DNA of 24,548 bases from Planctomycetota bacterium (GCA_038227875.1 JBBRPR010000092.1:1-24548), one strand, 5' to 3'. Shown: positions 4,446 through 20,477, counted from the stretch's first letter. Numbers and translations are program-made. Notes: generated by a model not told the origin, from the sequence alone.

Positions 4446-6173
4446 TTAAGGATTCCTCACGGCATCATTGCGTGGGTCCGTATTCTGCGCAGTCTTTTCA
4501 CACGACTTCGCGATGCGCTCGCCGATGTTCGGGCCGATCCCTAGCTGGCCCACGGCGCTAGAGTTGAACGTGCCAACAGACGAGCCCTTGATACCGGAAT
4601 CCAAAATACCGGGGACATCCTTCTTGTCGGGCGTGCCGAACGGTGTGGCCTTGGGCAGTTCCGGCGCTTTGATCGCGCCGACTGCCGTGCTGAGCGCGCC
4701 AGTAATTGAATTCCAGACGTTGTCACCGATTTTAGTCAGCGCGCCTTTCGCGCGGTCGGTGTCCAGGTGAACGCCTTTTGAGCCGTCCTGTGGATCTTTC
4801 TTAAAGAGATCGGCCATCTGCTTGTCGAGCGCTTTGTTTTTGCGCTCGCCGGTCAGAAGCGTGTTGTCGCGTGCGCTCGCGCGTTGATCGATTTCCTTGT
4901 TGCCCGTGTCGCGAAATCCCTGGAGCGCCTTGTTCGTGTTGTTGAGAAAACTCGTATCGATCTTCAGCGACTTCGGAGCGATGGAATTAAACGCTTCAAT
5001 GATCAACTGCAGCCCCTCCGTCAAATTTGAAATCATATAGGAAAAAGCGTTCGCGATTTTTGTGATGACATAGCTCCACGCGCCCCACCACGTCTGCGCA
5101 ACCCACGAAATGCCAGTGACGAGATCGTTGAATCCTTTTTCAATGAAAACCCAAAATGCACCGAGCCATGTCCCTAATCCGGTGCCATCCACTCGGATAG
5201 AATTAAAGAGTTCTCCGAATCCGGTTGCCGTCACACCTAGAGAATCGGTGACAGCAAGCGAAGCCATGCCAATCCCTATGACAACGGCCGTCAACAGGAT
5301 CGCGGGAGAGAGCGCCGCGTAGATCGCGCCGCCAACGGCAAGAAACGCTGTGCCGACGACACTGAGCGCCACACCGACTTTAAAAAGCCCCTGAACCAAT
5401 TCGGGATGAACGGCGATCCACTCCTGGAAGCCCTTGATCACCTGGACGATCTGTTCGATGAACGGTGTGAGGATCGGTGCCAACGCCGCGCCGATGGACA
5501 CCTGCAGCCCTTCGGCGGATTTAGATACGCGTTTGAACTCCGCGCCGAGCTTCGCCGCGGAGTCGATTGCTTTTTGATCCAGCGCGAGACCGAACTCGCG
5601 AGCGGAATTCGCCGCACGATTCAATCCGTCCGCGCCCTGCGAGAGCAGTGGCAATAGTTCAACGCCAGCGCGTCCGAGCAACCGCTGCGAGAGCTCCACC
5701 TGCTGACCTTTGTCTTTGACGGCCGCGAGCCGCTCAGCGACCAAGCCCAGCTGCTCTTCCGGAGAAAGCGCCTGGAGTTCTTTGAACGTCAGTCCGAGCG
5801 CCGTGAATGCTTCGGCGGACTCTTTGGTTTGATTGACGATATTGCGCTGCATTTCTTTTACGGCGTGCCCCAGCGCTTCCGCGCCCGCGCCGCCCGCGTA
5901 GAACAATCCAGCGACAGCCGAGCTCGACATGCCGGTCTGCGCCATGAACGCTTTGGTCTGCTTGCCCAGATCGGCAAAGGCGTGCGCACTGGCGACCAGC
6001 GGAGCCGTGATCGCCGCGCCAATTCCAGCCATCGTTCCGCCGATGGTTGTGATGGAACCAGCGAACGCCCGGAGAGAGGACTCGACACCCTTCATTGCGG
6101 CGTCGAATTCCTTGGTGACGGCGCCAATGACAACGTATGCGCCGCCTGCCTTCACGTCACCAGACTCAGCCAT
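4446..6173 (-). CDS. Tail tape measure protein
   Basis: 575 aa, Ala/Gly-rich helical; LSPEEQL...LLGRAGVELLPLL motif; central hydrophobic segments; follows the chaperone genes. Confidence 0.92.
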   Translation of the reverse strand: MAESGDVKAGGAYVVIGAVTKEFDAAMKGVESSLRAFAGSITTIGGTMAGIGAAITAPLVASAHAFADLGKQTKAFMAQTGMSSSAVAGLFYAGGAGAEALGHAVKEMQRNIVNQTKESAEAFTALGLTFKELQALSPEEQLGLVAERLAAVKDKGQQVELSQRLLGRAGVELLPLLSQGADGLNRAANSAREFGLALDQKAIDSAAKLGAEFKRVSKSAEGLQVSIGAALAPILTPFIEQIVQVIKGFQEWIAVHPELVQGLFKVGVALSVVGTAFLAVGGAIYAALSPAILLTAVVIGIGMASLAVTDSLGVTATGFGELFNSIRVDGTGLGTWLGAFWVFIEKGFNDLVTGISWVAQTWWGAWSYVITKIANAFSYMISNLTEGLQLIIEAFNSIAPKSLKIDTSFLNNTNKALQGFRDTGNKEIDQRASARDNTLLTGERKNKALDKQMADLFKKDPQDGSKGVHLDTDRAKGALTKIGDNVWNSITGALSTAVGAIKAPELPKATPFGTPDKKDVPGILDSGIKGSSVGTFNSSAVGQLGIGPNIGERIAKSCEKTAQNTDPRNDAVRNP

Positions 6174-7295: not shown

Positions 7296-7760
7296 TCAGG
7301 CACTCGCCGACGTACGAAGTACGCGGACATTAGTGCGGATGGTCCAACCCGGAAAACCCAAACCGTCGTTCGTGGCCATCGGCAGAGTGGCGCTGACACC
7401 CCACTGCTCTAAGTAGAGCGGCGCGAGCCACGTGCTGAGATCGGCGCGGTCGATCAGTTTCCAGAGCTTCAGCGCGAGATCGCGCACGGGCTTGCCTGAG
7501 AAATCCTTCTTGCCGAAAATCTGCGCGTCCGCGACGAACGTGCCGCCCGAGAATTGACGACAGCCAAAATCAGGCGCGCCCGACACGTCACCGACGACAA
7601 TGTAGGGCGTCGCCATATTGTCTGGGACAGTGTGCTCGTTAGAGAAAATCGCAGGCGCATTGCCCGTGCCGAAATCGAACTGCGAGAGTCCTGCTCGAAT
7701 ATCTATCGCGAGTTGCGCGGAACTCGTGGCGATCAATTTGTAAAGCGCCTGAGAGATCAC
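7296..7760 (-). CDS. Tail terminator/completion protein (DUF3168-like)
   Basis: 154 aa; ALYKLI...VPDNMATPYIVVGD motif; lies just before the tube gene. Confidence 0.78.
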   Translation of the reverse strand: MISQALYKLIATSSAQLAIDIRAGLSQFDFGTGNAPAIFSNEHTVPDNMATPYIVVGDVSGAPDFGCRQFSGGTFVADAQIFGKKDFSGKPVRDLALKLWKLIDRADLSTWLAPLYLEQWGVSATLPMATNDGLGFPGWTIRTNVRVLRTSASA

Positions 7761-8260
7761 GAGACAGCACCTCCCAGCGGAATGTTTTCAAAGACCTTGG
7801 CGAAGCGCGCGCGGCAGTTGTCCAGGGCGGGCCGCATAAACGGCCGCGCTGGAATGTGGACGCTGGAACCCACGGCCTTCCAGATGCCAAGATTCATCCC
7901 GAGCCACATTCGCATTTTCGCGGTCACGCGGATCAGCCCGCCGAATTCATGAATTCGGCCGTAAGGCGCGGTTGTGGCCGGGCCAACAACCCAGCTGCCG
8001 TCGGGCTGCCGAGCGGCTTGAATCGAGCCACGAAGATTTCCGGAGCGCAAATGCGGCGGCATGCCGGTTTCACTGGGCGTGTATTTGATTTCCCTCTTGC
8101 CGCTGGAGGTAACCGGAGTCGCGCCGCCTTTGGAAAGCAGGCGCTTGGCTTCAGCCTCGACCATGAGCGCGCACTTGCCGAGTCGCTCAGTGACGCCCTT
8201 TTTCAGGTGATCAGCGATTTCATCTGTGTTGAGGTAGACTCGCGCCTTCATGTCGATCAT
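7757..8260 (-). CDS. HK97 gp10-like / virion morphogenesis neck protein
   Basis: RSGNLRGSI, APYGRIHEFGG and IPARPFMRPAL motifs. Confidence 0.88.
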   Translation of the reverse strand: MIDMKARVYLNTDEIADHLKKGVTERLGKCALMVEAEAKRLLSKGGATPVTSSGKREIKYTPSETGMPPHLRSGNLRGSIQAARQPDGSWVVGPATTAPYGRIHEFGGLIRVTAKMRMWLGMNLGIWKAVGSSVHIPARPFMRPALDNCRARFAKVFENIPLGGAVS

Positions 8261-8267
8261 GAACTAG

Positions 8268-8277
8268 ATAGATACGC
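8268..8277 (-). promoter_or_regulatory. GCGTATCTAT motif copy 3 (putative late promoter element)
   Basis: Exact 10-mer in a 30-nt intergenic gap, 7 nt before the ATG at 8260; identical copies at 12607 and 17559. Confidence 0.7.
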
Positions 8278-8290
8278 ATGGGGCGGGGAG

Positions 8291-8596
8291 TTACGGCGAG
8301 ACCGGCCGATCAATGCGGGTGAGATTCACTTCGCGTTTGGTCGTGTCCAGGACGCGGTTGGCATCGATCACGCGATAGAAGGTTTCTGTCGAAGTGTCTT
8401 CGGGAATGATGCCGACGATATCATTGATCTTCACGTCCTCGTAAAGCTCAACGATCATCGTGATCTGCGTTTTGTTTGCTTCCAAGATGCCAAACAAAAC
8501 CGTCGCAGTGCCGAGCGTCTCGGAAAAGCCGCCGTCGCCGTCAGGCACGCGGGTCGGCCGGTAGCGGTTAAAGGGATAGGGAAGTGGCATCTTCAA
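8291..8596 (-). CDS. Head closure / head-tail adaptor (SPP1 gp16-like)
   Basis: About 100 aa; RPTRVPDGDGGFSET motif; follows the connector gene; the start may be ATG at 8590. Confidence 0.78.
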   Translation of the reverse strand: MKMPLPYPFNRYRPTRVPDGDGGFSETLGTATVLFGILEANKTQITMIVELYEDVKINDIVGIIPEDTSTETFYRVIDANRVLDTTKREVNLTRIDRPVSP

Positions 8597-9216
8597 GTCC
8601 TCGCTTTTGATTTCAAGGCGTAGGGCTGAATCATCTTAGCGATGTCGCTATCCACGAACGCGCCGAACTGGATTGACGCACCTTTCGCGCCGCTCGACAT
8701 CTCCGCGCCACGCGCGCGGTAGGCGCGAGTGACCAACGCCAGCGCGGCCTGCTTGAGCAGGGCCGGGGCCGTGGCATATCCGGCGGTGTAGTCGGCTCGG
8801 TAGCGTCCCATGCCGTCCATGAATCGCACCCAGTACGCCCAGCGGTTTTGCTGCATTGAAAGATCGTAGACCGTGGGCTGCAGCCACGGGACGCCGGTAC
8901 CAGGATCCGCGCGGACGATGCGCCCCTTGCCGATCAACGCCACCACAATGAGATCACCGGTAACGCGATCAATCACAGTGGGGTAGGTTTGGCCGGACTG
9001 CACCGTCAGAGCCGTCACAGGCCGACTAGAAGGGAAGAGGATGCCCATCCCGCCGTCGAGATCCTCTTCAACGGCCGAACTGCCGAATTTGATTCCTAAA
9101 TGGGTGGCGAGGAACTCTTCCGAGGCGTCGCACAGGATCTGGATTACGGCATCCTGCGCCGTGTGCCCTACCATTAAATAAGCCTTTGCCGTGGCCAGAT
9201 CGATGATTGTGCTCAT
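8593..9216 (-). CDS. Head-tail connector protein (HK97 gp6 / phiE125 gp8-like)
   Basis: IDLATAKAYL...QDAVIQILCDASEEFL and YTAGYATAPALLKQAALALV motifs. Confidence 0.9.
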   Translation of the reverse strand: MSTIIDLATAKAYLMVGHTAQDAVIQILCDASEEFLATHLGIKFGSSAVEEDLDGGMGILFPSSRPVTALTVQSGQTYPTVIDRVTGDLIVVALIGKGRIVRADPGTGVPWLQPTVYDLSMQQNRWAYWVRFMDGMGRYRADYTAGYATAPALLKQAALALVTRAYRARGAEMSSGAKGASIQFGAFVDSDIAKMIQPYALKSKART

Positions 9217-9332
9217 TTTAGCCCAATGCCTCCGTCTGACAGCCCTGCAACGTTGGATAGATCGCGCTGTGGGCGATTATCTCATTCAAAAGGCAAGAAC
9301 ATGGGGATTGACGTATCCGAGCGCTATAAACG

Positions 9333-9413
9333 GCGGGAATTCATCCTCGGGGCGGGCTGGGCGTAACTGTGGAGGAGGTCAGTCCGCTTCCAGCGCCCCG
9401 AGGCGATTCCCGC
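9333..9413 (-). other. Long imperfect RNA hairpin with ACCUCCUCCA loop, directly after the decoration gene stop
   Basis: Nested pairings GCGGGAAT/ATTCCCGC, CCTCGGGGCG/CGCCCCGAGG, CTGG/CCAG, GCG/CGC and GACTG/CAGTT. Confidence 0.75.
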
Positions 9414-9415
9414 GA

Positions 9416-10270
9416 TCAGTTGGTTTCGACCGTCATGGCGTAACAGAGAATGTCGTTCGCGGCCGTGCCCGATTGACCGCTTACCTTAATAGTAATGGCT
9501 CCCGTCTCGGTTTCTGCACCCGCTGCCGAGTAGTCCGTGATGTTGACGGTATCGTGTACCATCTTACCAAGCACCTGCTGCGTACTTGCGCCGGTGCGGA
9601 TCACGGTCAGTTCGGCGTGCCAGTTTTTGTTCGAATCGGTCAGTACCCCGGAGGTAATGACCTCCGAACCGAAGTAGAGCTTGATCGTCTTGTTATTTCC
9701 GGTTGTCGCGCAATGGCCCCACGCATGGATTTTCAGCACCTGGTTGGCGGAAGTGAGCGTGTTGGCGGGCAGTGCATACGTGAAAAGCACGTCTTCGCTG
9801 GTATCCGTGTTCGCCGCGCCGGTCGCGCTGGACTGTGCGCTGAGCACGCCATTGGATTTCCCGGTAAGCACGACGTCGCAGATATCCCCGTCGCTGGTCG
9901 TAGCGTTGAGCGCGATGCCCAGGCGTCGAGTAGCGGCAGTTGCAGTGATCTTGCCGACGGTATCGGGATAGACGTTCGCGCCCGCCGTGATCGCGCCGCT
10001 GGCCGTCAGGGAAAATACAGGCCGAAAGAGCAGCACGGTTACGCCGCCGCCGGATGCCGTGGTTTGCAGCGCACGCCCAATCGCTTCGTCGGCAGTGCTC
10101 GCCTGGGCTACCGAGTTCGCGCCGGAAACCTTGACCAGATTATTTGCCGTGATGGCACCGGACGCGGTGAAGCTCCGGCTATTTTCGGCGTCGCCAGCGA
10201 AGAGCGACGGAATAAAAACGAGCATGGCAGCGAGCAGTAGGCTCGCCAGAATGTTGTTTCGAGTCTTCAT
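9416..10270 (-). CDS. Capsid decoration/cement protein (DUF2190-like) with N-terminal signal peptide and C-terminal beta-sandwich domain
   Basis: Directly after the MCP; SFTASGAITANNLVKV...AIGRAL...LTASGAITAGANVY...LGIALNA...DGDICDVVL pattern; GGGAGG RBS. Confidence 0.8.
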   Translation of the reverse strand: MKTRNNILASLLLAAMLVFIPSLFAGDAENSRSFTASGAITANNLVKVSGANSVAQASTADEAIGRALQTTASGGGVTVLLFRPVFSLTASGAITAGANVYPDTVGKITATAATRRLGIALNATTSDGDICDVVLTGKSNGVLSAQSSATGAANTDTSEDVLFTYALPANTLTSANQVLKIHAWGHCATTGNNKTIKLYFGSEVITSGVLTDSNKNWHAELTVIRTGASTQQVLGKMVHDTVNITDYSAAGAETETGAITIKVSGQSGTAANDILCYAMTVETN

Positions 10271-10301
10271 TGGTACAACCTCCCGAGTGATTTTGGTTTT
10301 T

Positions 10302-10331
10302 AAAAAGCGAGGGGCGGCAATCGCCCCTCGC
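10302..10331 (-). terminator. Rho-independent terminator after the major capsid gene
   Basis: 10-bp perfect stem GCGAGGGGCG/CGCCCCTCGC with a 5-nt loop, followed by TTTTT on the minus strand. Confidence 0.85.
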
Positions 10332-10360
10332 GCGGATTCCAGTTTTGAACTATCAGAGAC

Positions 10361-11803
10361 TTAGGCAGCCAGCTGCGCGAACGCGCGGAGCTCAACCGGC
10401 TTGCCGCCGACCTGAATGAACATCACGTAGACCATCACGTTCTGTTCGATCTTTCGTTCGGCGCTGCGGGCCATGATGATTTCCTGCTCGACCGGCGCGA
10501 CGTACGACGCGAAGTTTCCGAACAGCACGTCACCCTGAACGCCCAGAGCCGGGAGACGCTGCGTCGGCACCACGGGGTAACCGAGGATCGTGCCGAGGTT
10601 CGCGCCCTGACCTGCACCGGAAGTCAGCGGCACAAACAGCGGGCGATTCTGGGTGTCCTTCTGGAGCTTCACGTCCTGCAGCGCCTTGTCCTGGATCGCA
10701 AACACCGCACCCGGCCGCAACTGCGGAGCGAGAGCGTGCTCCAGATTGACGAAGTCGTCGTACTTGACGTGCGCGCTCGTCGTGCGCGCAACCGTGTTCG
10801 CGAAGCCGATGATGCCGGTCGGCCGCGTGGTTCCGTTGCCGTTGATCACGGCGCGGTCGATCTTTCCCATCAGCGAGCGGCGGAACAAATTGTCGATCAG
10901 CGATTCGATGGGAATCGTCGAACGGTTGACCAGCTGGCGGGAGAGTTCGGTGCGCGTACCGAGTTCGAACGTCGGGATGGACTGCTGTTTGAACTTCGCT
11001 TCGGTGCCGTTGATTTCCGCACCTTCGGCGGTCCAGTACGACGCCGCGTAACCATCTTCGGCGAATTCATCTGCCGAATCTTCCGCACCCGGAGCCGCCT
11101 GCACCAATTGCGGCCAGAGGATCGTGCCGTAGCTGCACGGAACTTTGTAGCAGAGCGGCCAGAGCGCGGGCGCTTCGGACGGATACTGCAGGAGGTTCTT
11201 CATGAAGTCGGCCTGGAACAAATTGGCCTCTCCCGCCGATCCGCCAGACGACATCGGCAGCGCCTTGCCCGCGTAACCCGCGCGCGAACCGCCGTTCAGG
11301 AAGGATGAGTAGTCGGACTTTCCGCCGAAGAAAGCTTCGGGCAGAATCTGCATTGCGACGATCTTGGGAACCGCGACGGCACCTTCGATATTGCCTTCGC
11401 TTTCCATCTTCCAAGAGCCCTTCGGCGCGAGCAGATCGCGGGCGTTGCCGCCGAAGCTATCCAAGGTCTTACCCTTGAAGTAGTCGCTGAAAATAATGTA
11501 GTGATCTCGCGCTTCGTTGTCGTGATTGCGCGCCTGCGCGGGCGTCTTGGTGGCGAGCGTCCTTCCCTGCACCGTAACGAGATCGTCGATGCCGGAGAGT
11601 TGCTTGCGCCGGTTGGCGTGTTTCTTAGCCTCGTCCAAATCGGCGTTCAGCTTGTCGTACTCGGCGACCTTGCCGCGATATTCGGCGAGCGCATCGGTCT
11701 TGCCTTTTTCGTCGGTGGCCTTCTCGATCTTTTCCGACGCCGTTTCCATTTCGACTAACAGACCCTCCATCTTGCCCTTCAAGAGTTTGAGGTCGAGCTG
11801 CAT
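10361..11803 (-). CDS. Major capsid protein, HK97 family (480 aa, with coiled-coil delta/scaffold domain)
   Basis: Start reassigned to ATG 11803 (GGAG RBS; MQLDLKLLK...); WTAEGAEI, DRAVINGNGTTRPTGII, KDTQNRPLF, TILGYPVV and VLFGNF motifs. Confidence 0.95.
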   Translation of the reverse strand: MQLDLKLLKGKMEGLLVEMETASEKIEKATDEKGKTDALAEYRGKVAEYDKLNADLDEAKKHANRRKQLSGIDDLVTVQGRTLATKTPAQARNHDNEARDHYIIFSDYFKGKTLDSFGGNARDLLAPKGSWKMESEGNIEGAVAVPKIVAMQILPEAFFGGKSDYSSFLNGGSRAGYAGKALPMSSGGSAGEANLFQADFMKNLLQYPSEAPALWPLCYKVPCSYGTILWPQLVQAAPGAEDSADEFAEDGYAASYWTAEGAEINGTEAKFKQQSIPTFELGTRTELSRQLVNRSTIPIESLIDNLFRRSLMGKIDRAVINGNGTTRPTGIIGFANTVARTTSAHVKYDDFVNLEHALAPQLRPGAVFAIQDKALQDVKLQKDTQNRPLFVPLTSGAGQGANLGTILGYPVVPTQRLPALGVQGDVLFGNFASYVAPVEQEIIMARSAERKIEQNVMVYVMFIQVGGKPVELRAFAQLAA

Positions 11804-11834
11804 GGTTGAGTTCTCCAAAATTGGTTTCGAAAAT

Positions 11835-12563
11835 TTAGGCGTCGAGCAGAGAAATTTCTGCGCGGCGCAAAGCAATCTCCCGCTGAATGAGAGGCAATGC
11901 GGACGGCTGCAATGCGGGCGCGGCGGGCGTCTCAGTCTTTCCTGCGACGATGCCTGCGGCTTCGCTTTTGCCGGTGCTTTGCGCGGACTGTGCGGAGTCG
12001 ATTGTTGGTGAGTCTTCGGTCTTTGCGGCGAGTATGGCTGCCTGCGGATTGGCGGGGCGTACCGTGACGGTGACCTCGCAGAGCTCGCATTCCTGATGAA
12101 CAAGGACGTTGTCCGGCCCTTTCGGCATCGCCGAATTGGAGTAATCCCAGCGGACCGGTTTATATCCAACGCTCAAAAGGTTGACGTGCCCTTCGATCAC
12201 GAGCGTCCGGATTTCCTGCGCCAGTTCAACGCTGGAAAGTTCGGCATGAATCCAGAGACCAAAATCGTCTTCCTTGGCCTCTGTGATCGTACCGATACAG
12301 TCGAGCGCATCGCCGCCGTTGCAGAAATGCCGGACCATCAACTTCACCACGCCACGCGGAACGTTGATGCCAATCGAGCGCGTGAAACATCCACGCGTCA
12401 TGATTTCACCTTGCCCGTCGACGTTATTCCACACCGCCGCGTAGCCTTCGATCCAACCGCTCTTTCCACTGGCCGCGTCGTCAGTCTTGGCGCGGAGCCT
12501 GGATTCGGTGGGATGCATTACGCGGCGTGCGTGCCGGTCGACGCCGTTCCGTATTGGAGCCAT
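11835..12563 (-). CDS. Prohead maturation protease, HK97 family
   Basis: IEGYAAVWNNVD, EDDFGLWIHAEL, LSVGY and LCEVTVTVRPANPQA motifs; AGGAGG RBS. Confidence 0.95.
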   Translation of the reverse strand: MAPIRNGVDRHARRVMHPTESRLRAKTDDAASGKSGWIEGYAAVWNNVDGQGEIMTRGCFTRSIGINVPRGVVKLMVRHFCNGGDALDCIGTITEAKEDDFGLWIHAELSSVELAQEIRTLVIEGHVNLLSVGYKPVRWDYSNSAMPKGPDNVLVHQECELCEVTVTVRPANPQAAILAAKTEDSPTIDSAQSAQSTGKSEAAGIVAGKTETPAAPALQPSALPLIQREIALRRAEISLLDA

Positions 12564-12606
12564 ACAATGCCTCCTGACCGCTCACCTTGGGTCTTGATTC
12601 AATTAA

Positions 12607-12616
12607 ATAGATACGC
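12607..12616 (-). promoter_or_regulatory. GCGTATCTAT motif copy 2 (putative late promoter element)
   Basis: Exact 10-mer in the gap upstream of the protease and capsid genes. Confidence 0.7.
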
Positions 12617-12628
12617 AGCCAACGCCGA

Positions 12629-13465
12629 TCAGGCGCTTTCCTCGAAGATCGGCACGATGGTGCAGCGGCAATTGGGGTGCAGCGGCGGATGCAGGACGTC
12701 GAAGCCCTTCGCGCCGGCCGGGATCTTCAAATTGATTTCGTCGATGGAAAGTTTGTCGCCAGAGCTAAAGAACGGCTCGCCGGTCTCGATACGCTTGCCG
12801 TTCATTTCAGCGCAGAACGGGCAGCGCACGTCATCGTCTGCCGTGAGCCATTCGACGATGGTCACGCCGGCATCTTCATAACGCTGCAGCGCGCCTTCGT
12901 TGTAGCTCCAGATCGCGCCGGTGTGCGCGAGCATACTGGCACGCGCTTCGATCTGCGTCAGGCCCGCCTGGAGAATCTCCTTCGCAATGTCGCGCGGCGA
13001 CTGGCCATCTTCAGCGGCTGCTTTGAAAATGTTCTCCAGCCGTGTCGCGCTGGTTTGCGCGCCGCCCTCTGCCGTGGTCTTGATCCAACGATCAATGCGC
13101 GAGACGTCGGCCTTCGTGAAAAAGTTTTTGGCGTCGGCGACCGTCAACGAAGATTTCCCGCGGTACTGAGCATCGTCGGCATTTTTGCCGCGCGTGGCGT
13201 GGCCGACTTCCTGTTCGGCGAGTTCCCAGCCGTGCTTGACCATACCCTTGATCATCGAATTCTGAACGCGCGTGAAATCCTGCGACCAGTGTTTCTTCAT
13301 CGCGGCAGAAACAACGCGTGACGACGAATGCGCGTACTCGCGGACCTGTCGCTGCAGCGCGCCAAGAAACATCGAGCGCAGGCGCGCGTAGTTCTTGTCG
13401 GCGTAAGCCGCGCGCATCAATGCCGCCCGGACGCGGCGCGCTTTTATTTTCTCAGCGACAGACAT
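12629..13465 (-). CDS. Head morphogenesis protein (SPP1 gp7 / Mu gpF-like)
   Basis: EWLTADDDVRCPFCAEMNG and HPPLHPNCRCTIVP motifs. Confidence 0.93.
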   Translation of the reverse strand: MSVAEKIKARRVRAALMRAAYADKNYARLRSMFLGALQRQVREYAHSSSRVVSAAMKKHWSQDFTRVQNSMIKGMVKHGWELAEQEVGHATRGKNADDAQYRGKSSLTVADAKNFFTKADVSRIDRWIKTTAEGGAQTSATRLENIFKAAAEDGQSPRDIAKEILQAGLTQIEARASMLAHTGAIWSYNEGALQRYEDAGVTIVEWLTADDDVRCPFCAEMNGKRIETGEPFFSSGDKLSIDEINLKIPAGAKGFDVLHPPLHPNCRCTIVPIFEESA

Positions 13466-13468
13466 GGT

Positions 13469-14941
13469 TTATTGCTTCGCGTTGTCGGCCAGTTTTTTGA
13501 GCTGCTCTTCCGTCGCAATTTTTGTATTGCCAACCTTTTGAGGATCGTCGAGCTTCGGCTGATCTGGCTGCCCATCGTCTTTCGGCGGTTCGTCTTGAGC
13601 GTCGAGCGACGACGTATAGCCCATCGGCAGAAGAAATTGCGTACCGTCCGCCCCATCGATCGGTTTCAGTCCGGCGATCTCGCGCGCTTCGTTCTTGCTG
13701 GCGAGATTGTTCGTGTAGAGCTTCACCGCGCGTTCGATTTGTTTATCTTCGTCGTCGCGCAAACCGCGCACGTCGCTGGTGTCGTGATAGATCTTCAGTC
13801 GCGTATCGCCTTCGTCGCGCAACAATCCGCGCGTGAGACCGCCGTCCAGCATCTTCCAGCGACCAGCCATGGAGTGATAAAACGCCTTCATCGCGGCTTC
13901 GTAGTTTGAGTACGTACCGTTCTCCAAGCCACTACGCAACCCGACGATGATGGGCGGCACATCGAACGCGGAGCAGATGCGCGTTTCGGAAAGATTGGCG
14001 ACGCCGGGCCAGTCCAAATCTTTAAGTGGCGCCTGCGTCTCAATCGTCGCGCCTTCGCCGTCGAGAAACAGCGGCCGTCCGCGACGGCCCTTGCCAAGCC
14101 CGTCCAAAATAACAGCGCGGACTTCGTCCTTTTGATCCGGAGACCAGCCCTCTGGTTGCTTTAAAATCATTCCGGGAGTGCGTGCGTTGGCGAGCATTTC
14201 CACGATGTAATCCTGCCGCTCGGTGTCGGTATGGACCTCGCGGATCGCGGCCTGCAGCGGGCCGAGCCCAAGCGTGGGATTCGACGGGTCCACGTGGATC
14301 TGCCGGATCATGTCCTCGCGCAGGACGGGAAGCCAATCCTTGTTTGCGCCCTGGTACACGAGAAAGTGCGATAGCTTTCCGTTCGGATCGCGAGCTTCCC
14401 TCACCATCGACGTGGGCATCGGCCAGAGCTCGCCGATCTGGCCCACGCCGTTGCGCCACTTCCAGGCGTACGTGCGGCCGGTCAATTCGAGGTGCGAGAT
14501 GTAGTGCGTCAGAAATTCGCCGTAGGACATTTCGGGGTTGGGATCGGCGAGCAGTGAATTGAGATAATGGTTTTCCTGATCGACCCAGCCCTTCGGCGTG
14601 TCGCGCCCGATCCGCAGCGGCGCTTCCTGCGCCGTATTGCAGATTTTCCGAACGCATGAATAGACAATGATCGCTTTGCGATAAATGCTTTCCAACTCAG
14701 TCGAGTTTGCCTTGCCGAAAATTTCGTCGGCTCCGATCCACTGCGGATTGCCGTCGAGAATATCCCAGCCGCCGCTGGTACGGGGATCGTCGGCGAGAGA
14801 CTTGCCGCGCAGCGTGGCGGCGCGAAAGAGATCGAATGTGCGGTCGCTGCCGCCGACGAAAATCCGGGTCTTGCCTTCGACGCGGCGAAACTCAATGCTC
14901 GATGCATTTGGATTGAAAAACCGTTTCACTGTTTCGAACAT
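13469..14941 (-). CDS. Portal protein, HK97 family
   Basis: VYSCVRKI, LLADPNPEMS, LELTGRTY, ELWPM and ICSAFDVPPIIVG...TYSNYE motifs. Confidence 0.95.
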   Translation of the reverse strand: MFETVKRFFNPNASSIEFRRVEGKTRIFVGGSDRTFDLFRAATLRGKSLADDPRTSGGWDILDGNPQWIGADEIFGKANSTELESIYRKAIIVYSCVRKICNTAQEAPLRIGRDTPKGWVDQENHYLNSLLADPNPEMSYGEFLTHYISHLELTGRTYAWKWRNGVGQIGELWPMPTSMVREARDPNGKLSHFLVYQGANKDWLPVLREDMIRQIHVDPSNPTLGLGPLQAAIREVHTDTERQDYIVEMLANARTPGMILKQPEGWSPDQKDEVRAVILDGLGKGRRGRPLFLDGEGATIETQAPLKDLDWPGVANLSETRICSAFDVPPIIVGLRSGLENGTYSNYEAAMKAFYHSMAGRWKMLDGGLTRGLLRDEGDTRLKIYHDTSDVRGLRDDEDKQIERAVKLYTNNLASKNEAREIAGLKPIDGADGTQFLLPMGYTSSLDAQDEPPKDDGQPDQPKLDDPQKVGNTKIATEEQLKKLADNAKQ

Positions 14942-14950
14942 TGAACCTCC

Positions 14951-16426
14951 TTAGCGCGAGAGACCCATGCGGCGACCCGCGCTGTTGAGCTCTTCGGCAC
15001 CGATCACGAAACTGTCGACCTGGTCATCGTGCTTGCCTCGCGGAAAAGCCGAGACCTCGGCAAGCCACGCATCGTTCCACGCGCCGCGAACGAGAAAGAC
15101 ATTCTTGTTTTCGAACGCCGGCTCGACCAGCGAGGCGCGCGCGACCTTGTCGAGTTGAGGTGTGGAATTGCGGACGATGTACTTTCCGCGCAGGCGGTCT
15201 CGGATTCGAATGTACGTATCTTTGTAACCGGCGACGGTTTCTATTTTGACGGTGCAGCGCGGACCATCAGCGACCGCAGCCGCCTCGATTTGTTTGTCGC
15301 GTTCGGTCGCCGTCCACTGTCCGCGAATCACGTCGACGACGAAATAATTCATCCCGTCGTATGCGACCTTTGTTCCAACCGTGTAGTCGGGATCGTCCTT
15401 CACGCGCTCTTTTTCAGAGCTCGCTAAATCCCACGAGCGCACGTACCGCAGTTTGCGCGCGACAACCTTCGGATCGGACTCCTCGCCAACAAGGACAGTC
15501 ATCGTTTCCGGAATAGCGTCGATGATCTCAGCCAAATCACTGCGCAGGAATTGTCCAGTGCGCGGTTGTGGATTGCCCTGGTACAGCGACTGCCATGCAT
15601 ACGGGCCAACGATGGCTTTCTGTCCGCGATAATACTTGGCGTCGAAGCGCTCCGGGAAAAGAAACGTCCCGTCTTCGGCTTCGGCGGGGAAGTTGATGTG
15701 CTTGAACCGGGGAAACTCCGGATCCTTTTCCATCGCCTCAAAGATTCGGCCCACGAGGTCATCAGGATGCCATCGCGTGGCGACCACGATAACAGCGTGG
15801 CCTGGAGCGCCGCGCGTGATGATATCGCTACGAAAACTATCCCACGTGCTCTGGCGAATCGTTTCGCTTTCGGCCTCCGCGCGATTTTTGCAGTAGTCAT
15901 CAATGACGATGATGCTGCCGCCGCGCCCGGTCATTGCGCCGCCGATGCCGACGGCGACCATACCGCCACGATGGCCTTCGATCCTCCACGCGCCGATCTG
16001 GTTTCGGTCATCGCTCAGGCGCAGGCCGAATTTGCCTCCGGCTTCCGCAAAGCACTTGCGAACGTCATGCGCCAGATCGTGGGAGAGGTCCGCGCCGTAT
16101 GTCACCAAAATAACTTCATGGTCCGGATTGCGCGACATGTGCCAGGCGGGATAGCGGCGTGAACAAATGTCCGACTTGCCGTGGCGCGGCGGCATCGTGA
16201 CGATGATGTAATGGCGACCGCCCGCCTCCACGATTTCAGAGGCGTGCTGGAGCTCCGCGATCAATGCTTTGGTGTGTTTGCCAAACAGATAGTCGAGCGA
16301 TGGCGGATAGGTCCGAAAGAATTTATCAAAGCTGAGCGTACAGCGCTTGCCCTTCTCGGCATCGGCTGTCGCACGGTCGAACGTCTCGATCAGCGGATCG
16401 GATTTGGGTTTTGGTTTGCGCGCCAT
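14951..16426 (-). CDS. terL: Terminase large subunit
   Basis: Walker A MPPRHGKS, Walker B IIVIDD, TRWHPDDL, nuclease motifs SWDLA and HDDQVDS. Confidence 0.96.
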   Translation of the reverse strand: MARKPKPKSDPLIETFDRATADAEKGKRCTLSFDKFFRTYPPSLDYLFGKHTKALIAELQHASEIVEAGGRHYIIVTMPPRHGKSDICSRRYPAWHMSRNPDHEVILVTYGADLSHDLAHDVRKCFAEAGGKFGLRLSDDRNQIGAWRIEGHRGGMVAVGIGGAMTGRGGSIIVIDDYCKNRAEAESETIRQSTWDSFRSDIITRGAPGHAVIVVATRWHPDDLVGRIFEAMEKDPEFPRFKHINFPAEAEDGTFLFPERFDAKYYRGQKAIVGPYAWQSLYQGNPQPRTGQFLRSDLAEIIDAIPETMTVLVGEESDPKVVARKLRYVRSWDLASSEKERVKDDPDYTVGTKVAYDGMNYFVVDVIRGQWTATERDKQIEAAAVADGPRCTVKIETVAGYKDTYIRIRDRLRGKYIVRNSTPQLDKVARASLVEPAFENKNVFLVRGAWNDAWLAEVSAFPRGKHDDQVDSFVIGAEELNSAGRRMGLSR

Positions 16427-16429
16427 AAA

Positions 16430-17032
16430 TCAGCTTGCCGCTGCAACCGGCTCCAAGTCATTGGAAAGGGTCTCGTTTTCGCGGATGTAGCGCTCGCGTA
16501 CGCGCGCGCGCAAAACCTTCGCCTTCTCAGGCCCGAACAGCGCGAGCGTCTCTTCAACAAAGATCGTGATGAGTAGGGAAGCCTGCCTCGAATCGGCAAC
16601 CGCCGGGATGGTTTGAGAGCGGATCTTCTCTACGATTTTCGCCACGGCCTCGAAGGCGCGCACTGCAGAGCCCAAGTCCTTGTCGGGATTCTTGCGATGC
16701 TCTTCAAGCACCTGCTCGAAATGCTTGCTGCATTCGGCAAGCAGACGGTCGTAAGACCGCAGCTGGCCAGTCAACGTGCCTTCCTGCTGAGCCATCGAGC
16801 GCGCGCGTTCGGCGTCGAGAATCGCCTGCATCTGTTGCGTGCGCACTTGCTCGGTGAGCTCCGCTACCAGTTCGGTGAATTTTGTTTTTTGAAGCAAGCG
16901 GCGCAGCGTCGATTCGGCGATGCCGCGAAAAGATTCGTACTCCGACTGCAACGCCTTGACCGCCGCCGAGATATTCATCCCGGAGCGCGCCAGCTGGTAA
17001 GCAATAACGCGGACGTCGCTCTCGGTGTACAA
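16430..17032 (-). CDS. Probable terminase small subunit
   Basis: 200 aa; N-terminal HTH-like segment (NISAAVKAL...IAESTLRRLL), helical remainder; directly upstream of TerL; TTG start with AAGGAG RBS. Confidence 0.65.
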   Translation of the reverse strand: MYTESDVRVIAYQLARSGMNISAAVKALQSEYESFRGIAESTLRRLLQKTKFTELVAELTEQVRTQQMQAILDAERARSMAQQEGTLTGQLRSYDRLLAECSKHFEQVLEEHRKNPDKDLGSAVRAFEAVAKIVEKIRSQTIPAVADSRQASLLITIFVEETLALFGPEKAKVLRARVRERYIRENETLSNDLEPVAAAS

Positions 17033-17041
17033 TCTTGCTCC

Positions 17042-17515
17042 TTAGTGCATGAGGCCGTGAACTGCGGCAGTGACTCCGCCGCCGAGCGCCGCGCCTGCCG
17101 CAACAAGTCCACTCAGCTTGGCTAGACCAATTCCAGTTTCCTTTTCTTCCTGAGAGAGATCCTTGACGTCGGCTTCGATTTTCTGGAAGCGACGCTCCCC
17201 CTCGGCGAGGCGCTGACTCACTGCGGACAACTCCCGACCGTGCTCCTGCAGTGTTTCGTTTTGCCGTTCAATGTCATCTTTCACTTCGTGAATTTCTTCT
17301 TTGAGCTCCTTGCGCGACGCCTCCACCTGACGCGAGATGGTTTCCATTTTCGTGTCGATGTGGCGCTGGAGTTCGAGGGAGCTCTGAGCGACGTCGCGCT
17401 GAACCTTGGCGACGTCGCGCTGAACGGCGATGGAAAATTGGGTGGTAAGCTCTCGAATGAATTCCTGATCGTGCAGGGAGAGCTTCGACTTTTCCTGCGG
17501 ATCAGAGTCAGGCAT
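17042..17515 (-). CDS. Coiled-coil protein with C-terminal hydrophobic helix (holin/lysis-associated-like)
   Basis: Start reassigned to ATG 17515 (MPDSDPQEK); long heptad region; C-terminal LSGLVAAGAALGGGVTAAV. Confidence 0.6.
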   Translation of the reverse strand: MPDSDPQEKSKLSLHDQEFIRELTTQFSIAVQRDVAKVQRDVAQSSLELQRHIDTKMETISRQVEASRKELKEEIHEVKDDIERQNETLQEHGRELSAVSQRLAEGERRFQKIEADVKDLSQEEKETGIGLAKLSGLVAAGAALGGGVTAAVHGLMH

Positions 17516-17558
17516 GATGCGCACCCTCGGGATTTTCGGGCTAGATAAGATACCATTT

Positions 17559-17568
17559 ATAGATACGC
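17559..17568 (-). promoter_or_regulatory. GCGTATCTAT motif copy 1 (putative late promoter element)
   Basis: Exact 10-mer in the AT-rich gap at the boundary between the early/middle and late gene blocks. Confidence 0.7.
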
Positions 17569-18785: not shown

Positions 18786-19144
18786 CAGCAGCCCCCAATC
18801 GAATCGTTCTCCAGCATGCACGCTAACTCCGGATCACAGACGCTGTAGAATCCTTCGCGATCAGGAAACGTGTCCGCCGCGTCGACTAAAATCCGAACGC
18901 GCAGCCGTTCGGCTGCGTTGCTGATCAGATAGTTCGATGGCCACATGTCCGATGCGATCAGCAGCACATCCAGAACTTCCGAGCGATTGCATCCTCGCGC
19001 TCTGCGGCGGTCCGCGATCTCCACGAGTTCCCGCGTGAATTGCTTGTCACCGAACGCGTCATGAAACTTTCGCAGCGCCTGCCGGATAATTTCGATACCC
19101 GTCTCGCGCGCGTTTTCGAGTGCCTCCTCCAAAAAACAATTCAT
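18785..19144 (-). CDS. Hypothetical helical protein (119 aa), weak sigma region-4-like pattern
   Basis: Start reassigned to ATG 19144 (TAATG overlap with the sigma-2 gene); function inferred by eye only. Confidence 0.55.
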   Translation of the reverse strand: MNCFLEEALENARETGIEIIRQALRKFHDAFGDKQFTRELVEIADRRRARGCNRSEVLDVLLIASDMWPSNYLISNAAERLRVRILVDAADTFPDREGFYSVCDPELACMLENDSIGGC

Positions 19145-19488
19145 TAAGCGATCCTTTCCAAGTAGTCGATGAGGGGAAGACTTTCTGTCGTAGCTTCCGC
19201 GCTGCAGCGCATGTTCTTGCGCTGGAGATCGGCAAGCGCGCAGCACGCCGCGAAGTACGCGTAGTTCTGTAGCGGGAACTTTCCGCCGTGTTTAAACCGC
19301 GCCAGCCTGCGCACGGTGCCGAGCGTGACCTCTTGCTTAAAATCCTCCCACCCCATCTGTAGCGGCGGACGGCCGCGATGCCTGCGGATGATGGCGAGAT
19401 TCACAACGGGCTTGACCACGTCCGCGATTTCCGACTGCGTCGCGGCGCGGCGCAGCGGATCGCCGACGTCGAACAAATAACCATCCAT
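19144..19488 (-). CDS. Sigma-70 region-2-only protein (114 aa)
   Basis: KPVVNLAIIRR...WEDFKQEVTLGTVRRLARF...FPLQNYAYFAACCALADLQRK follows the region 2.1-2.4 pattern (EDLxQE..., F.TYA....AI.D.LRK); no region 4 HTH. Confidence 0.75.
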   Translation of the reverse strand: MDGYLFDVGDPLRRAATQSEIADVVKPVVNLAIIRRHRGRPPLQMGWEDFKQEVTLGTVRRLARFKHGGKFPLQNYAYFAACCALADLQRKNMRCSAEATTESLPLIDYLERIA

Positions 19489-19491
19489 GAT

Positions 19492-20112
19492 TTACATGCC
19501 CCAAAGCGTGCGCTGTTCGGACGCGACTTTCTGCGCGCCTTTAGCGGACCGCTGTTGCTTCAGCGGAGTCCATTCGGATTTGCGGTAGCCACCGGCGCGC
19601 GGCTCCTCCTGGATCAGCAGCCGATAGGCTTCGACCAGCGGAAGCGTTTCGACGGTGTAGTGCGTGGATTGTTCGCGGTAGCGCTCGAATTTCGGCGCGT
19701 TATGCATCATCCAATTGACCCACTGGTCGGGATTCTTTTTGGTCTTACTCAGGACGTCGCGCAGGCGCGCGTGGATCTTGGGCGGCTTGCCATTAAGCAT
19801 GTCGCGGAGCGCATTGAGCTCAAAGTCTCGGCAGGCCGTTAAGGTCGAGATTACGCGCCCGAGCACGCCAGACGCCCAGAGGTACGGCGATTCGATTTCG
19901 ACCGTCGTGTTCGGCCAGAAGTATTTCGGATCGCGGACTTCGCCCGGTCCAACGCAACCGCACGTCAAACACCAGCCGTCCGCGTCGCGCTCGGCGGGCC
20001 GGTGACAGTACACGCAGTTGGGCTGCAGCGCCGTGATCGTGCCATCGGCAACCATGCGCTTGAACTGCGCGTGGACGGCCTGCATCTGCCGCTTCCGCTG
20101 GAGTTCATTCAT
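19492..20112 (-). CDS. GemA (Mu gp16/DUF1018)-like protein with inserted zinc ribbon
   Basis: Start reassigned to ATG 20112 (GGAGG RBS, ATGA overlap); RKRQMQAVHAQFKRM and TLTACRDFELNALRDML motifs; CVYC-x11-CLTC. Confidence 0.5.
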   Translation of the reverse strand: MNELQRKRQMQAVHAQFKRMVADGTITALQPNCVYCHRPAERDADGWCLTCGCVGPGEVRDPKYFWPNTTVEIESPYLWASGVLGRVISTLTACRDFELNALRDMLNGKPPKIHARLRDVLSKTKKNPDQWVNWMMHNAPKFERYREQSTHYTVETLPLVEAYRLLIQEEPRAGGYRKSEWTPLKQQRSAKGAQKVASEQRTLWGM

Positions 20113-20477
20113 CGCTTTTCCTCCACTGTGGAGGGGGCGGGCGTAAGCGCGGTAGGCGCGGGCGGCAACCAGACTCCGCTGCCGTCCCACGGAAATTCGA
20201 GCACGAATTTACTAAGGTCAGACGGCTGACCGGGAGGGCCGAGAGAGCCCTGTATCATACCTTTAAAAAGCGCCGTCTCATCGGTGATCTTATTGCGTTC
20301 GCAATAGTGCCCGTCGTTCTCGAAAATCCATGCGTCAGCTCCATCAAGTCTGCCGATCACGCCATTCAAATCACCTATCTCATCAATAAATTTACTCAAA
20401 CGCTTGGGGTTCGAAATGATGATGAGGCGATAGAACCAGCGCGTATTTCCTCCGTGGTATTTCAACAGTTCCGACAT
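20109..20477 (-). CDS. Hypothetical protein (122 aa)
   Basis: ATG 20477 with strong GGAGGAGG RBS; ATGA overlap downstream. Confidence 0.7.
   Translation of the reverse strand: MSELLKYHGGNTRWFYRLIIISNPKRLSKFIDEIGDLNGVIGRLDGADAWIFENDGHYCERNKITDETALFKGMIQGSLGPPGQPSDLSKFVLEFPWDGSGVWLPPAPTALTPAPSTVEEKR

What the first reader, a model, noticed from the sequence alone, without database searches (positions are those of the whole stretch)
8268..17568. Exact 10-mer GCGTATCTAT in three late-region intergenic gaps: candidate -10-only phage late promoter
Seen: GCGTATCTAT (extended consensus GCGTATCTATnwA) occurs on the coding strand at 17559-17568 (before the membrane protein and TerS/TerL), 12607-12616 (before protease and capsid) and 8268-8277 (before the neck and tail genes). 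All three copies are in short non-coding gaps and head a functional module. By eye, no -35-like element is shared upstream. The core CGTATCTA also recurs on the same strand inside genes at 5522, 21445 and 23258, and a degenerate GCGATCTAT lies at about 9257. Known: T4 late promoters are a -10-only element read by the region-2-only sigma gp55. Inference: this is the late promoter, recognised by the region-2-only sigma at 19144..19488.
Basis: partly seen in the sequence, partly recalled or inferred. Interest (0 to 1): 0.85.

Follow-up and report, generated by a model that had tools for sequence, protein, structure and literature searches.

The report
Phage late promoter with minimal sigma
A nine-base DNA word that heads the virion-gene blocks of this uncultured phage is conserved in its distant relatives and always travels with a tiny phage protein shaped like only the promoter-melting part of a bacterial sigma factor, so it is most likely the phage's own late-gene switch.

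Summary
GCGTATCTAT occurs three times, exactly where reported, all on the coding (minus) strand and all in short non-coding gaps. The conserved core is the 9-mer CGTATCTAT: 3 copies against 0.01 expected.

The same word recurs on the coding strand of three distant relatives: 6 copies in G012:C67, 2 in G018 and 2 in viral contig L032. Their proteins are only about 40-60% identical to the window's. Nothing else around the sites is conserved, including any -35 element.

All four phages encode the 114-aa protein of 19144..19488. Its family matches sigma-70 region 2 / ECF sigma profiles, and its model superposes on sigma domain 2, T4 gp55 included. No member shows a region 4.

160 loci with a related terminase but no such gene show no enrichment or strand bias (16 forward, 16 reverse in 1.58 Mb). 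Two mosaic relatives share the early genes but carry a divergent sigma-2 gene and other head genes, and they lack the motif on that strand.

Best reading (about 0.6): a -10-only late promoter read by host core RNA polymerase plus this ECF-derived minimal sigma, working like T4 gp55 but not a member of its family. No transcript data exist, so the start sites, the timing and the protein-DNA pairing are inferred.

The parts
17559..17568 (-). Motif copy 1 (core CGTATCTAT 17559-17567). It lies 43 nt before the ATG of the coiled-coil membrane protein that heads the block coiled-coil protein / TerS-like / TerL / portal / MuF. A degenerate second copy (CTTATCTAG, 17541-17549) follows.
12607..12616 (-). 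Motif copy 2. It lies 13 nt after the MuF-like gene's stop and 43 nt before the prohead protease ATG, heading protease and capsid.
8268..8277 (-). Motif copy 3. It lies 7 nt before the ATG of the Neck1/tail-completion gene, heading the neck and tail genes. The transcript would be nearly leaderless if this is a -10 element.
9257..9265 (-). Degenerate copy GCGATCTAT (one base missing) in the 199-nt gap before the head-tail adaptor gene. Possibly a weak site; not significant on its own.
5522..5529 (-). 8-mer CGTATCTA (then A) inside the tape-measure gene. Status unknown.
21445..21452 (-). 8-mer CGTATCTA (then A) inside an early-region ORF. Status unknown.
23258..23265 (-). 8-mer CGTATCTA (then G) inside an early-region ORF. 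Status unknown.
19144..19488 (-). Gene for the 114-aa sigma domain-2-only protein (P0001): an ECF-like region 2, then a variable linker, then a conserved hydrophobic-acidic C-terminal tail (LPLID).
19492..20190 (-). Conserved neighbour just upstream of the sigma-2 gene (P0041, 206 aa from the internal ATG). It is present in all six relatives examined. Its function is unknown and it is not the specificity determinant.
17042..17515 (-). First gene after motif 1: a coiled-coil protein with a hydrophobic C-terminus, conserved right after the motif in G012, G018 and L032.
12629..17032 (-). TerS-like gene (16430-17032), TerL (14951-16426), portal (13469-14941) and MuF-like gene (12629-13465). This is the first late block.
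10361..12563 (-). Prohead protease (11835-12563) and major capsid protein (ends at 10361). This is the second late block.
10307..10331 (-). Strong intrinsic-terminator-like hairpin (10 pairs, 9 G-C, then TTTTT) just after the capsid gene.
7757..8260 (-). Neck1/tail-completion gene, first gene of the third block (neck, tail tube, tape measure and so on).

Best explanation
CGTATCTAT (last base T or C) is the late promoter of this siphovirus-like phage of a Planctomycetota host, and it consists of a -10-type element only.

Proposed mechanism. The phage gene at 19144..19488 makes a 114-aa protein that is just sigma domain 2, derived from an ECF-type sigma. This protein docks on the clamp helices of the host core RNA polymerase in place of the host sigma. 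It recognises and melts the 9-bp word on the non-template strand. Transcription then starts a few bases downstream, giving 5' leaders of roughly 0-55 nt.

Three such promoters in the window drive (1) the membrane coiled-coil protein, terminase, portal and MuF, (2) protease and capsid, and (3) the neck and tail genes.

Shown here: the motif is real, strand-specific, intergenic and conserved across relatives. The protein is a sigma-2-only domain. The two co-occur.

Inferred: binding to core polymerase, recognition of this word by this protein, the start sites, and late timing.
For: MOTIF
- The 9-mer occurs 3 times against 0.01 expected in the window and 4 times against 0.01 in L028 of G012.
- G012:C67 (32.5 kb) holds 6 of the 11 copies in its 6.9-Mb genome, all on the coding strand. 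Four of the six are intergenic.
- G018:C286 has CGTATCTAC at the end of its sigma-2 gene, and G018:C245 has CGTATCTAT before its protease gene. L032 has CGTATCTAC 137 nt after its sigma-2 gene and CGTATCCAC before its protease gene.
- Summed over these loci, CGTATCTA occurs 14 times on the coding strand and once on the other, in 76,111 bp.
- Proteins of these phages are only 41-61% identical to the window's, and only the nine motif columns carry more than 1 bit.
- Sites lie 6-60 nt before start codons.

CONTROLS
- 160 loci with a related TerL (1.58 Mb) have no sigma-2-like ORF at E<=1e-3. They carry 16 forward and 16 reverse copies, at most 2 per locus.

PROTEIN
- 17 of 32 family members hit Pfam Sigma70_r2, best E 3.5e-8.
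- 23 of 32 hit TIGR02937 sigma70-ECF. P0001 itself hits ShbA at E 1.2e-6.
- The family profile's 10 PDB hits at E<=10 are all sigma factors; the best is FliA at 3.9e-4.
- The AF2 model has pLDDT 89. The listed Foldseek hits are, with rare exceptions, sigma-factor chains (mostly domain 2).
- The VIA-align second look gives Z 7.2-8.8 at about 2 A over 66-80 residues for most rows. It includes sigma-E bound to -10 DNA (4lup) and T4 gp55 (7d7c_F: Z 7.5, rmsd 4.3 A, 94 aligned).
- No Sigma70_r4 hit in the 32 members or in 8 longer hits.

LINKAGE
- The sigma-2 gene is the last gene before the first motif in G012, G018 and L032.
- In G012 versus G006, six early genes are 45-68% identical, including the conserved neighbour at 57%. 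The sigma-2 proteins are only 34% identical over 64 aa, the head genes differ, and G006's 55 kb has no CGTATCTA at all.
- The window and G008 also share early genes (29-52% identical). G008 has a divergent sigma-2 gene, other head genes and no copy on that strand.
Against: - There are no transcript data. No RNA run holds this sequence, so no start site is shown.
- A single-sequence Pfam match of P0001 is weak (E 0.055, 13.7 bits, below the 24-bit cut-off). The assignment rests on the family and on the fold.
- VIA-align Z values of 7-9 for a small helical domain are in the range where only a common arrangement can be meant (note).
- Co-occurrence cannot separate the sigma-2 gene from other genes of the same late module.
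- The comparison rests on only four related phages (the two G018 contigs are counted as one phage, which is not shown), and kin are not independent.
- Two of the six G012 copies, and three 8-mer copies in the window, lie inside genes.
- At two sites the start codon is only 6-7 nt after the word, which requires leaderless or near-leaderless mRNAs.
- The more distant sigma-2 homologues in G006 and G008 have no recognisable motif of their own in my crude searches.
- How a sigma without domain 4 would be recruited is unexplained.
Confidence: 0.6

Rival explanations
1. The word is the binding site of another factor, either a phage-encoded activator from the same module or a host protein. That factor would recruit the host holoenzyme, as RinA/ArpU-type late activators or Mu C do. 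The sigma-2 protein would then do something else, for example displace or inhibit the host sigma.
For: Late activators encoded just upstream of terS that bind DNA before terS are well known (PMC3753634, passages read). Co-occurrence cannot separate genes that travel together with the late module. A conserved neighbour gene of unknown function sits next to the sigma-2 gene in all six relatives.
Against: The word is asymmetric, single and only 9 bp long, with no repeat or dyad. No host-type -35/-10 pair accompanies it. At two sites it lies 6-7 nt from the start codon, leaving no room for a separate core promoter downstream. The conserved neighbour is 57% identical between G012, which has six motifs, and G006, which has none, so it does not set the specificity. 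No DNA-binding domain was found in it.
Confidence: 0.15
2. The word acts during elongation or on the RNA. It could be a -10-like pause or loading site on the non-template strand, where the sigma-2 protein or another factor boards the polymerase to make it termination-resistant (as in sigma-dependent pausing for lambda Q, or ops/RfaH). Or it could be an RNA processing or binding signal.
For: The copies are strictly on the coding strand and are spread every 2.7-5.8 kb along one long co-directional gene array, including inside genes. A strong terminator-like hairpin sits inside the array after the capsid gene. Sigma domain 2 is what recognises -10-like pause signals (recalled knowledge; the entry titles 7n4e and 6p18 are such complexes).
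Against: 7 of the 9 exact copies in the window and G012 lie in the rare non-coding gaps directly before module heads. That placement fits initiation better than reloading. No conserved flanking sequence or structure exists for an RNA element, and there is no Rfam match. No upstream promoter for the whole array was identified that would make such sites sufficient.
Confidence: 0.12
3. The word serves replication, packaging or recombination: a DnaA-box-like site, a pac/cos site or a Chi-like site.
For: The variant CGTATCCAC in L032 resembles the DnaA box TTATCCACA (recalled consensus). Chi sites are also strand-specific 8-mers.
Against: Chi or DnaA boxes should be common in the host genome, yet the 9-mer occurs only 14 times in 9.3 Mb against 22 for the reversed control. 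Packaging sites occur once per genome. The sites are not clustered and sit before gene starts.
Confidence: 0.03
4. Chance recurrence of an AT-rich word in non-coding DNA of a GC-rich genome, with no function.
For: Non-coding gaps are more AT-rich than genes, which inflates AT-rich words there.
Against: 0 of 100-200 shuffles reach the observed counts. The exact word is kept in relatives whose gaps are otherwise unalignable. It shows a 14:1 strand bias.
Confidence: 0.02

Closest known systems
Bacteriophage T4 late transcription: gp55 plus the late promoters (TATAAATA, sequence recalled), with gp33 and the gp45 sliding clamp
   Same: A phage protein that corresponds to sigma domain 2 only. A promoter that is a single 8-9-bp -10-type word with no -35 element. 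Many copies heading virion genes. A short hydrophobic-acidic C-terminal segment after a variable linker; in gp55 this is the clamp-binding epitope (PMC2988020, passages read). The P0001 model aligns to gp55 in 7d7c_F at Z 7.5.
   Different: There is no sequence membership in the gp55 family: P0001 matches ECF-type sigma profiles, not gp55. The protein has 114 aa (gp55 about 185 aa, recalled). The phage is a small siphovirus-like, probably temperate phage of Planctomycetota, not a T4-like myovirus. The word is a GC-containing CGTATCTAT. No gp33-like or clamp gene was recognised. Clamp dependence is untested.
ECF (group 4) sigma factors, e.g. ShbA, SigE/SigH
   Same: Region 2 is alike in sequence and fold. 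The CGT at the start of the word recalls ECF -10 elements such as CGTA/CGTC (recalled).
   Different: ECF sigmas have domains 2 and 4 and need a -35 element. Here no region 4 is found in 0 of 32 members plus 0 of 8 longer hits, and no -35 is conserved.
Two-subunit (split) sigma factors: B. subtilis SigO-RsoA, Tn916 Sig7-Sig8, SPO1 gp33/gp34
   Same: A small separate protein carries the region-2 function on a mobile element or phage (bioRxiv 10.64898/2026.10.01.756105, passages read).
   Different: Those systems have a partner with region 4 and promoters with -35 and -10 parts. No region-4 protein was found among the window's 37 ORFs, and no -35 is conserved.
Ltr super-family of late activators (RinA, ArpU, LtrA-C) of Gram-positive temperate phages
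   Same: [quoted passage not shown] G012, G018 and L032 show the same layout.
   Different: Ltr proteins bind a repeat region before terS only, and LtrA resembles sigma region 4. Here the protein resembles region 2 and the single word recurs at several module heads. No sequence match to those families was seen.
Mycobacteriophage D29 gp53, a 'minimal sigma-factor mimic'
   Same: A compact phage protein with a sigma domain-2-like architecture that competes for the sigma site on polymerase (bioRxiv 10.64898/2026.10.05.756390, passages read).
   Different: gp53 has domain 2- and 3-like parts and no promoter motif is assigned to it yet. Here a cognate candidate motif exists.

Membership tests
Sigma-70 family, domain 2 (Pfam Sigma70_r2 / TIGR02937 ECF) | Sequence match to region 2 profiles | tested here: met
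   P0001 alone is below the cut-off (E 0.055, 13.7 of 24 bits) but hits NF007230 ShbA at 1.2e-6. 17 of 32 family members hit Sigma70_r2 (best 3.5e-8) and 23 of 32 hit TIGR02937 (best 2.9e-9). The family profile's 10 PDB hits at E<=10 are all sigma factors.
Sigma-70 family, domain 2 (Pfam Sigma70_r2 / TIGR02937 ECF) | Three-helix sigma-2 fold | tested here: met
   AF2 pLDDT 89, pTM 0.74. The listed Foldseek hits are, with rare exceptions, sigma-factor chains, mostly domain 2. VIA-align Z 7.2-8.8, about 2 A rmsd over 66-80 residues for most rows; Z in this range is moderate for helical proteins.
Sigma-70 family, domain 2 (Pfam Sigma70_r2 / TIGR02937 ECF) | Binds the beta-prime clamp helices of core RNA polymerase | not testable with these tools
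This needs a pull-down or a structure.
Canonical ECF sigma factor | Domain 4 (region 4) present, with a -35 element in the promoter | tested here: not met
   No Sigma70_r4 hit in 32 members at E<=0.1 or in 8 longer hits at E<=0.01. The proteins are 98-161 aa. No conserved -35 columns.
T4 gp55-type late system | Sequence homology to gp55 | tested here: not met
   Pfam at E<=10 gives only Sigma70_r2. PHROGs: 0 families for P0001, and 2 of 32 members hit a generic sigma PHROG. There is only fold-level similarity to 7d7c_F.
T4 gp55-type late system | Promoter is a single -10-type word without an upstream element, in many copies before late genes | tested here: met
   Met in silico only.
T4 gp55-type late system | [quoted passage not shown] | tested here: inconclusive
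   A tail of the form [LYFVW]-P-[LIVFM]-[LFIWM]-[DEA] after a variable linker is present in 14 of 32 members, including P0001 (LPLID); G012's protein ends YPLFD. Its resemblance to the clamp motif is recalled, not tested. The complex prediction with host DnaN could not be run.
T4 gp55-type late system | gp33-like co-activator that binds the beta flap | tested here: inconclusive
   The conserved neighbour P0041 has no Pfam or PDB sequence match. Its only fold matches are weak ones to the Red-beta C-terminal domain and NinB (Z 5.4-5.9).
Split sigma (SigO-RsoA / Sig7-Sig8) | A partner protein carrying region 4 | tested here: not met
   No Sigma70_r4 family among the window's 37 ORFs at E<=0.01. 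ORFs under 50 aa were not scanned, and a very divergent partner could be missed.
Ltr (RinA/ArpU/LtrA-C) late activators | Sequence membership in one of the Ltr families | tested here: not met
   No such Pfam or NCBIfam hit for P0001 or for the 32 members.
Ltr (RinA/ArpU/LtrA-C) late activators | [quoted passage not shown] | tested here: met
   This is the layout in G012, G018:C286 and L032. In the window about 1.6 kb of small ORFs intervene.

The most novel reading that the evidence does not exclude
An ECF sigma stripped down to domain 2 has independently become a T4-gp55-like late sigma in temperate siphoviruses of Planctomycetota. Its conserved C-terminal tail (hydrophobic-Pro-Leu-hydrophobic-acidic, after a variable linker) would tether it to the host beta sliding clamp. 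Late transcription from the 9-bp -10-only promoters would then be coupled to DNA replication, a mechanism so far tied to T4-like phages and, recently, Mu.
Probability: 0.15. Interest if true: 0.85.

Novelty: new variant of a known kind. Interest (0 to 1): 0.62.

Why it matters
[quoted passage not shown] Here the same logic appears in small, probably temperate phages of a phylum whose phages are little studied, and the protein plainly descends from ECF sigmas rather than from gp55.

If confirmed, it gives three things. First, a second, independent origin of a -10-only, single-domain sigma system. Second, a compact orthogonal part for synthetic biology: a 114-aa factor with a 9-bp promoter. Third, a simple way to annotate late operons in these phages.

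The protein family has no PHROG of its own; only 2 of 32 members hit any PHROG. Its 38 representative clusters in metagenomes carry no name that I saw.

Tried and rejected
- RNA evidence: no RNA holder listed for window:8000-17900. Only three DNA runs of one study hold it.
- Complex prediction (P0001 tail with a host DnaN dimer, alignments A7 and A1) was not available. Binding to the clamp or to polymerase is therefore untested.
- Direct searches for relatives found nothing with the portal protein in viral contigs or genome contigs, nothing with P0001 in the word-indexed protein search, and nothing with A5 in viral contigs. Known phages reach only about 33% identity to TerL.
- Motif discovery for the distant sigma-2 homologues gave no convincing shared word in G006. 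G008 instead has a dyad, GGTTGTCGAA...TTCGACAACC, at four places. So co-variation of protein and motif could not be shown.
- The conserved neighbour P0041 gave no answer: no Pfam or PDB sequence hits, no Foldseek match, weak VIA-align matches only, and an ESM Atlas score of 0.77 to an unnamed viral cluster.
- There are no Rfam families and no tRNAs in the window.
- The sigma-70-type promoter scan found 3 sites against 6.2 expected, none at the motif.
- Of the other copies of the 10-mer in the host genome, two lie inside ordinary genes. One (C54:15850) lies before an HTH_23 gene next to a resolvase; no link to this phage was found.
- Considered and rejected: a promoter for a phage-encoded RNA polymerase (no such gene, and the word is too short), and pac/cos, Chi and DnaA-box readings (see rivals).
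- Literature searches found no description of this protein family or motif. I searched only the held open-access library and read no supplements.

Full report
WHAT THE WINDOW IS. The window is a whole 24,548-bp contig (G000:C92) of a 9.3-Mb, 176-contig assembly, with 58% G+C. All recognisable genes lie on the minus strand. They form a siphovirus-like order:
- an early region with an XRE-type HTH protein (22213-22725);
- then the TerS-like gene, TerL, portal, MuF-like gene, prohead protease, major capsid, cement-like protein, head-tail adaptor, Neck1, tail tube, tape measure and collagen-like fibre genes.

Known phages reach only about 33% identity to its TerL. A relative's contig carries a record title naming a Planctomycetota MAG. 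A more distant relative of the sigma-like gene sits inside a 3.26-Mb contig of the same bacterial family, so the host assignment is reasonable.

- GCGTATCTAT is at 8268-8277, 12607-12616 and 17559-17568, all on the minus strand.
- The core 9-mer occurs 3 times against 0.01 expected. The 8-mer CGTATCTA occurs 7 times against 0.21, six of them on the coding strand.
- All three exact copies fall in the 3.8% of the window that my gene model leaves non-coding.
- They lie 43, 43 and 7 nt before the start codons of the coiled-coil membrane protein, the protease and the neck protein.
- The assembly as a whole has only 6 copies of the 10-mer and 14 of the 9-mer, fewer than the reversed control word. 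So this is not a host-wide signal.

COMPARATIVE EVIDENCE. Four sets of relatives were found through whole-genome and contig searches.
- G012:C67 (portal 51%, TerL 55% identical) has six CGTATCTAT copies, all on its coding strand, out of 11 in its 6.9-Mb genome. Four are intergenic: after the sigma-like gene, 6 nt before the protease ATG, and two before tail-region genes. Two lie inside genes, one of them 147 nt before the tail-tube gene.
- G018 has CGTATCTAC at the very end of its sigma-like gene (C286) and CGTATCTAT before its protease (C245).
- Viral contig L032 has CGTATCTAC 137 nt after its sigma-like gene and CGTATCCAC before its protease.
- Across these loci the 8-mer is found 14 times on the coding strand and once on the other, in 76 kb.
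- When the 12 sites are aligned, only the nine motif columns exceed 1 bit.
- As a control, 160 loci that encode a related TerL (30-50% identity, 1.58 Mb) contain no sigma-2-like ORF at E<=1e-3. They carry the 8-mer 16 times forward and 16 times reverse, never more than twice per locus.
- Leaving the window out, since the word was defined on it, 8 coding-strand copies in 51.6 kb stand against about 0.5 expected at the control rate. This is my arithmetic. The relatives are kin, so the figure overstates independence.

THE PROTEIN. P0001 (19144..19488, 114 aa) alone gives only a weak Pfam Sigma70_r2 hit (E 0.055). The exhaustive profile-free search found 38 representative clusters of mostly 100-170-aa proteins.
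- Of the 32 I aligned (leaving out two giant spurious hits and four proteins of 173-286 aa), 17 hit Sigma70_r2 (best 3.5e-8) and 23 hit the ECF sigma superfamily model.
- P0001 hits the ShbA model at 1.2e-6 over residues 19-102.
- The family profile's 10 PDB hits at E<=10 are all sigma factors.
- The AlphaFold model is confident (pLDDT 89). The listed Foldseek matches are, with rare exceptions, sigma-factor chains, mostly domain 2.
- The second-look alignment gives Z 7.2-8.8 at about 2 A for most rows. It includes sigma-E and sigma-A domain 2 bound to -10 DNA, and T4 gp55 in its open complex.
- No member, and none of the eight hits left out of the alignment (the two giant spurious ones among them), shows region 4. 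No region-4 protein is found among the window's 37 ORFs.

By sequence, however, it is an ECF derivative, not a gp55 homologue.

LINKAGE OF PROTEIN AND WORD.
- In G012, G018 and L032 the sigma-2 gene is the last gene before the first motif copy and the packaging genes. This layout recalls the RinA/ArpU late activators (PMC3753634). In the window about 1.6 kb of small ORFs intervene.
- Two mosaic comparisons are informative. G012 and G006 share six early genes at 45-68% identity, including the conserved neighbour of the sigma-2 gene at 57%. Their sigma-2 proteins are only 34% identical over 64 residues, their head genes differ, and the 55 kb fetched from G006 holds no CGTATCTA.
- The window and G008 likewise share early genes, but G008 has a divergent sigma-2 gene, other head genes and no copy on that strand.
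- The word therefore travels with the sigma-2 clade and its late module, not with the early genes and not with the conserved neighbour.

MECHANISM PROPOSED. Host core polymerase plus P0001 recognises CGTATCTAT as a -10-type element and starts a few bases downstream.
- Shown: the cis-element, its placement, the domain identity of the protein, and the co-occurrence.
- Inferred: core binding, DNA recognition by this protein, the start sites and the timing.
- If the word spans roughly -13 to -5, the protease gene of G012 and the neck gene of the window would be translated from leaderless or near-leaderless mRNAs.
- A strong terminator-like hairpin after the capsid gene would make a fresh promoter useful for the genes that follow. 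The degenerate GCGATCTAT at 9257 sits in the next gap.

A FURTHER PARALLEL WITH T4, UNTESTED. After a variable linker, P0001 ends in LPLIDYLERIA. A tail of the form hydrophobic-Pro-Leu-hydrophobic-acidic is present in 14 of the 32 members, and G012's protein ends YPLFD. T4 gp55 has just such a short hydrophobic-acidic C-terminal segment on a variable linker, and there it is the clamp-binding epitope (PMC2988020). The tail also recalls the bacterial clamp-binding motif QLxLF (recalled).

RIVALS. These are another DNA-binding factor, a pause/loading or RNA-level signal, a replication or packaging site, and chance. They are weighed in their own sections. The first two cannot be excluded without 5'-end mapping or biochemistry.

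RELATION TO EARLIER NOTES OF THIS SCAN. Other agents have reported small sigma-2/gp55-like proteins paired with candidate motifs in unrelated uncultured phages. I did not test those notes. They suggest the general design is more widespread than the literature implies, which tempers the novelty of the kind but not of this ECF-derived variant.

LIMITS.
- Only four related phages carry the word.
- The contigs of the other family representatives could not be fetched.
- Gene starts are from my own ORF model.
- Papers were read as search listings, abstracts and found passages only, and no supplements were consulted.

Noticed in passing
window 10307-10331 (-): Strong intrinsic-terminator-like hairpin (10 pairs, 9 G-C, then TTTTTAAAAA) directly after the major capsid gene. 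It probably boosts capsid mRNA relative to downstream genes.
   Followed up: partly
window 17583-18111 (-): Two adjacent small ORFs (17911-18111 and 17583-17894) carry what look like C5-cytosine methyltransferase motifs (DLCCGKGG, then ENV; motif names recalled). This may be a split or frameshifted methyltransferase gene between the sigma-2 gene and the first motif.
   Followed up: no
window 18785-19144 (-): A 119-aa ORF starts with an ATG that overlaps the stop codon of the sigma-2 gene (ATGA), which suggests translational coupling. It has no homologue in the relatives and no family match.
   Followed up: partly
window 19492-20190 (-): The conserved neighbour protein carries, only in this phage, a roughly 50-residue Cys-rich insertion (CxxC...CxxCxC). 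Part of its family ends in a conserved Q..LWG(M) tail. Function unknown; weak fold matches to the Red-beta C-terminal domain and NinB (Z 5.4-5.9).
   Followed up: partly
window 17541-17549 (-): A degenerate second copy (CTTATCTAG, within GGTATCTTATCTAG) lies 10 nt after motif copy 1, giving a partial tandem duplication at the first late promoter candidate.
   Followed up: no
L044-L046 (G008:C42), joined positions 8256, 9497, 9545, 20179: A different, dyad-symmetric element (GGTTGTCGAA-spacer-TTCGACAACC) recurs in the early region and just before the TerS-like gene of this mosaic relative. It is probably an operator of that phage's own regulator.
   Followed up: partly
G000:C54:15850-15859 (-) (L003, L050): One further intergenic copy of the 10-mer in the host assembly. 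It lies 18 nt before an HTH_23 gene next to a resolvase gene in a low-GC (about 50%) island. No link to this phage was found.
   Followed up: partly
window 20254-20281 (-): A weak sigma-70-like promoter match (ATGAGA-16-TATGAT) lies upstream of the neighbour and sigma-2 gene pair. It is a candidate for the promoter that expresses the sigma-2 gene, but the scan as a whole is below chance expectation.
   Followed up: no
G012:C67 (L029 2848-3297 region and upstream) and G018:C286: In G012 and G018 a small HTH-like protein is encoded between the conserved neighbour and the sigma-2 gene, and G006 has a similar one just after it. The window lacks it.
   Followed up: no
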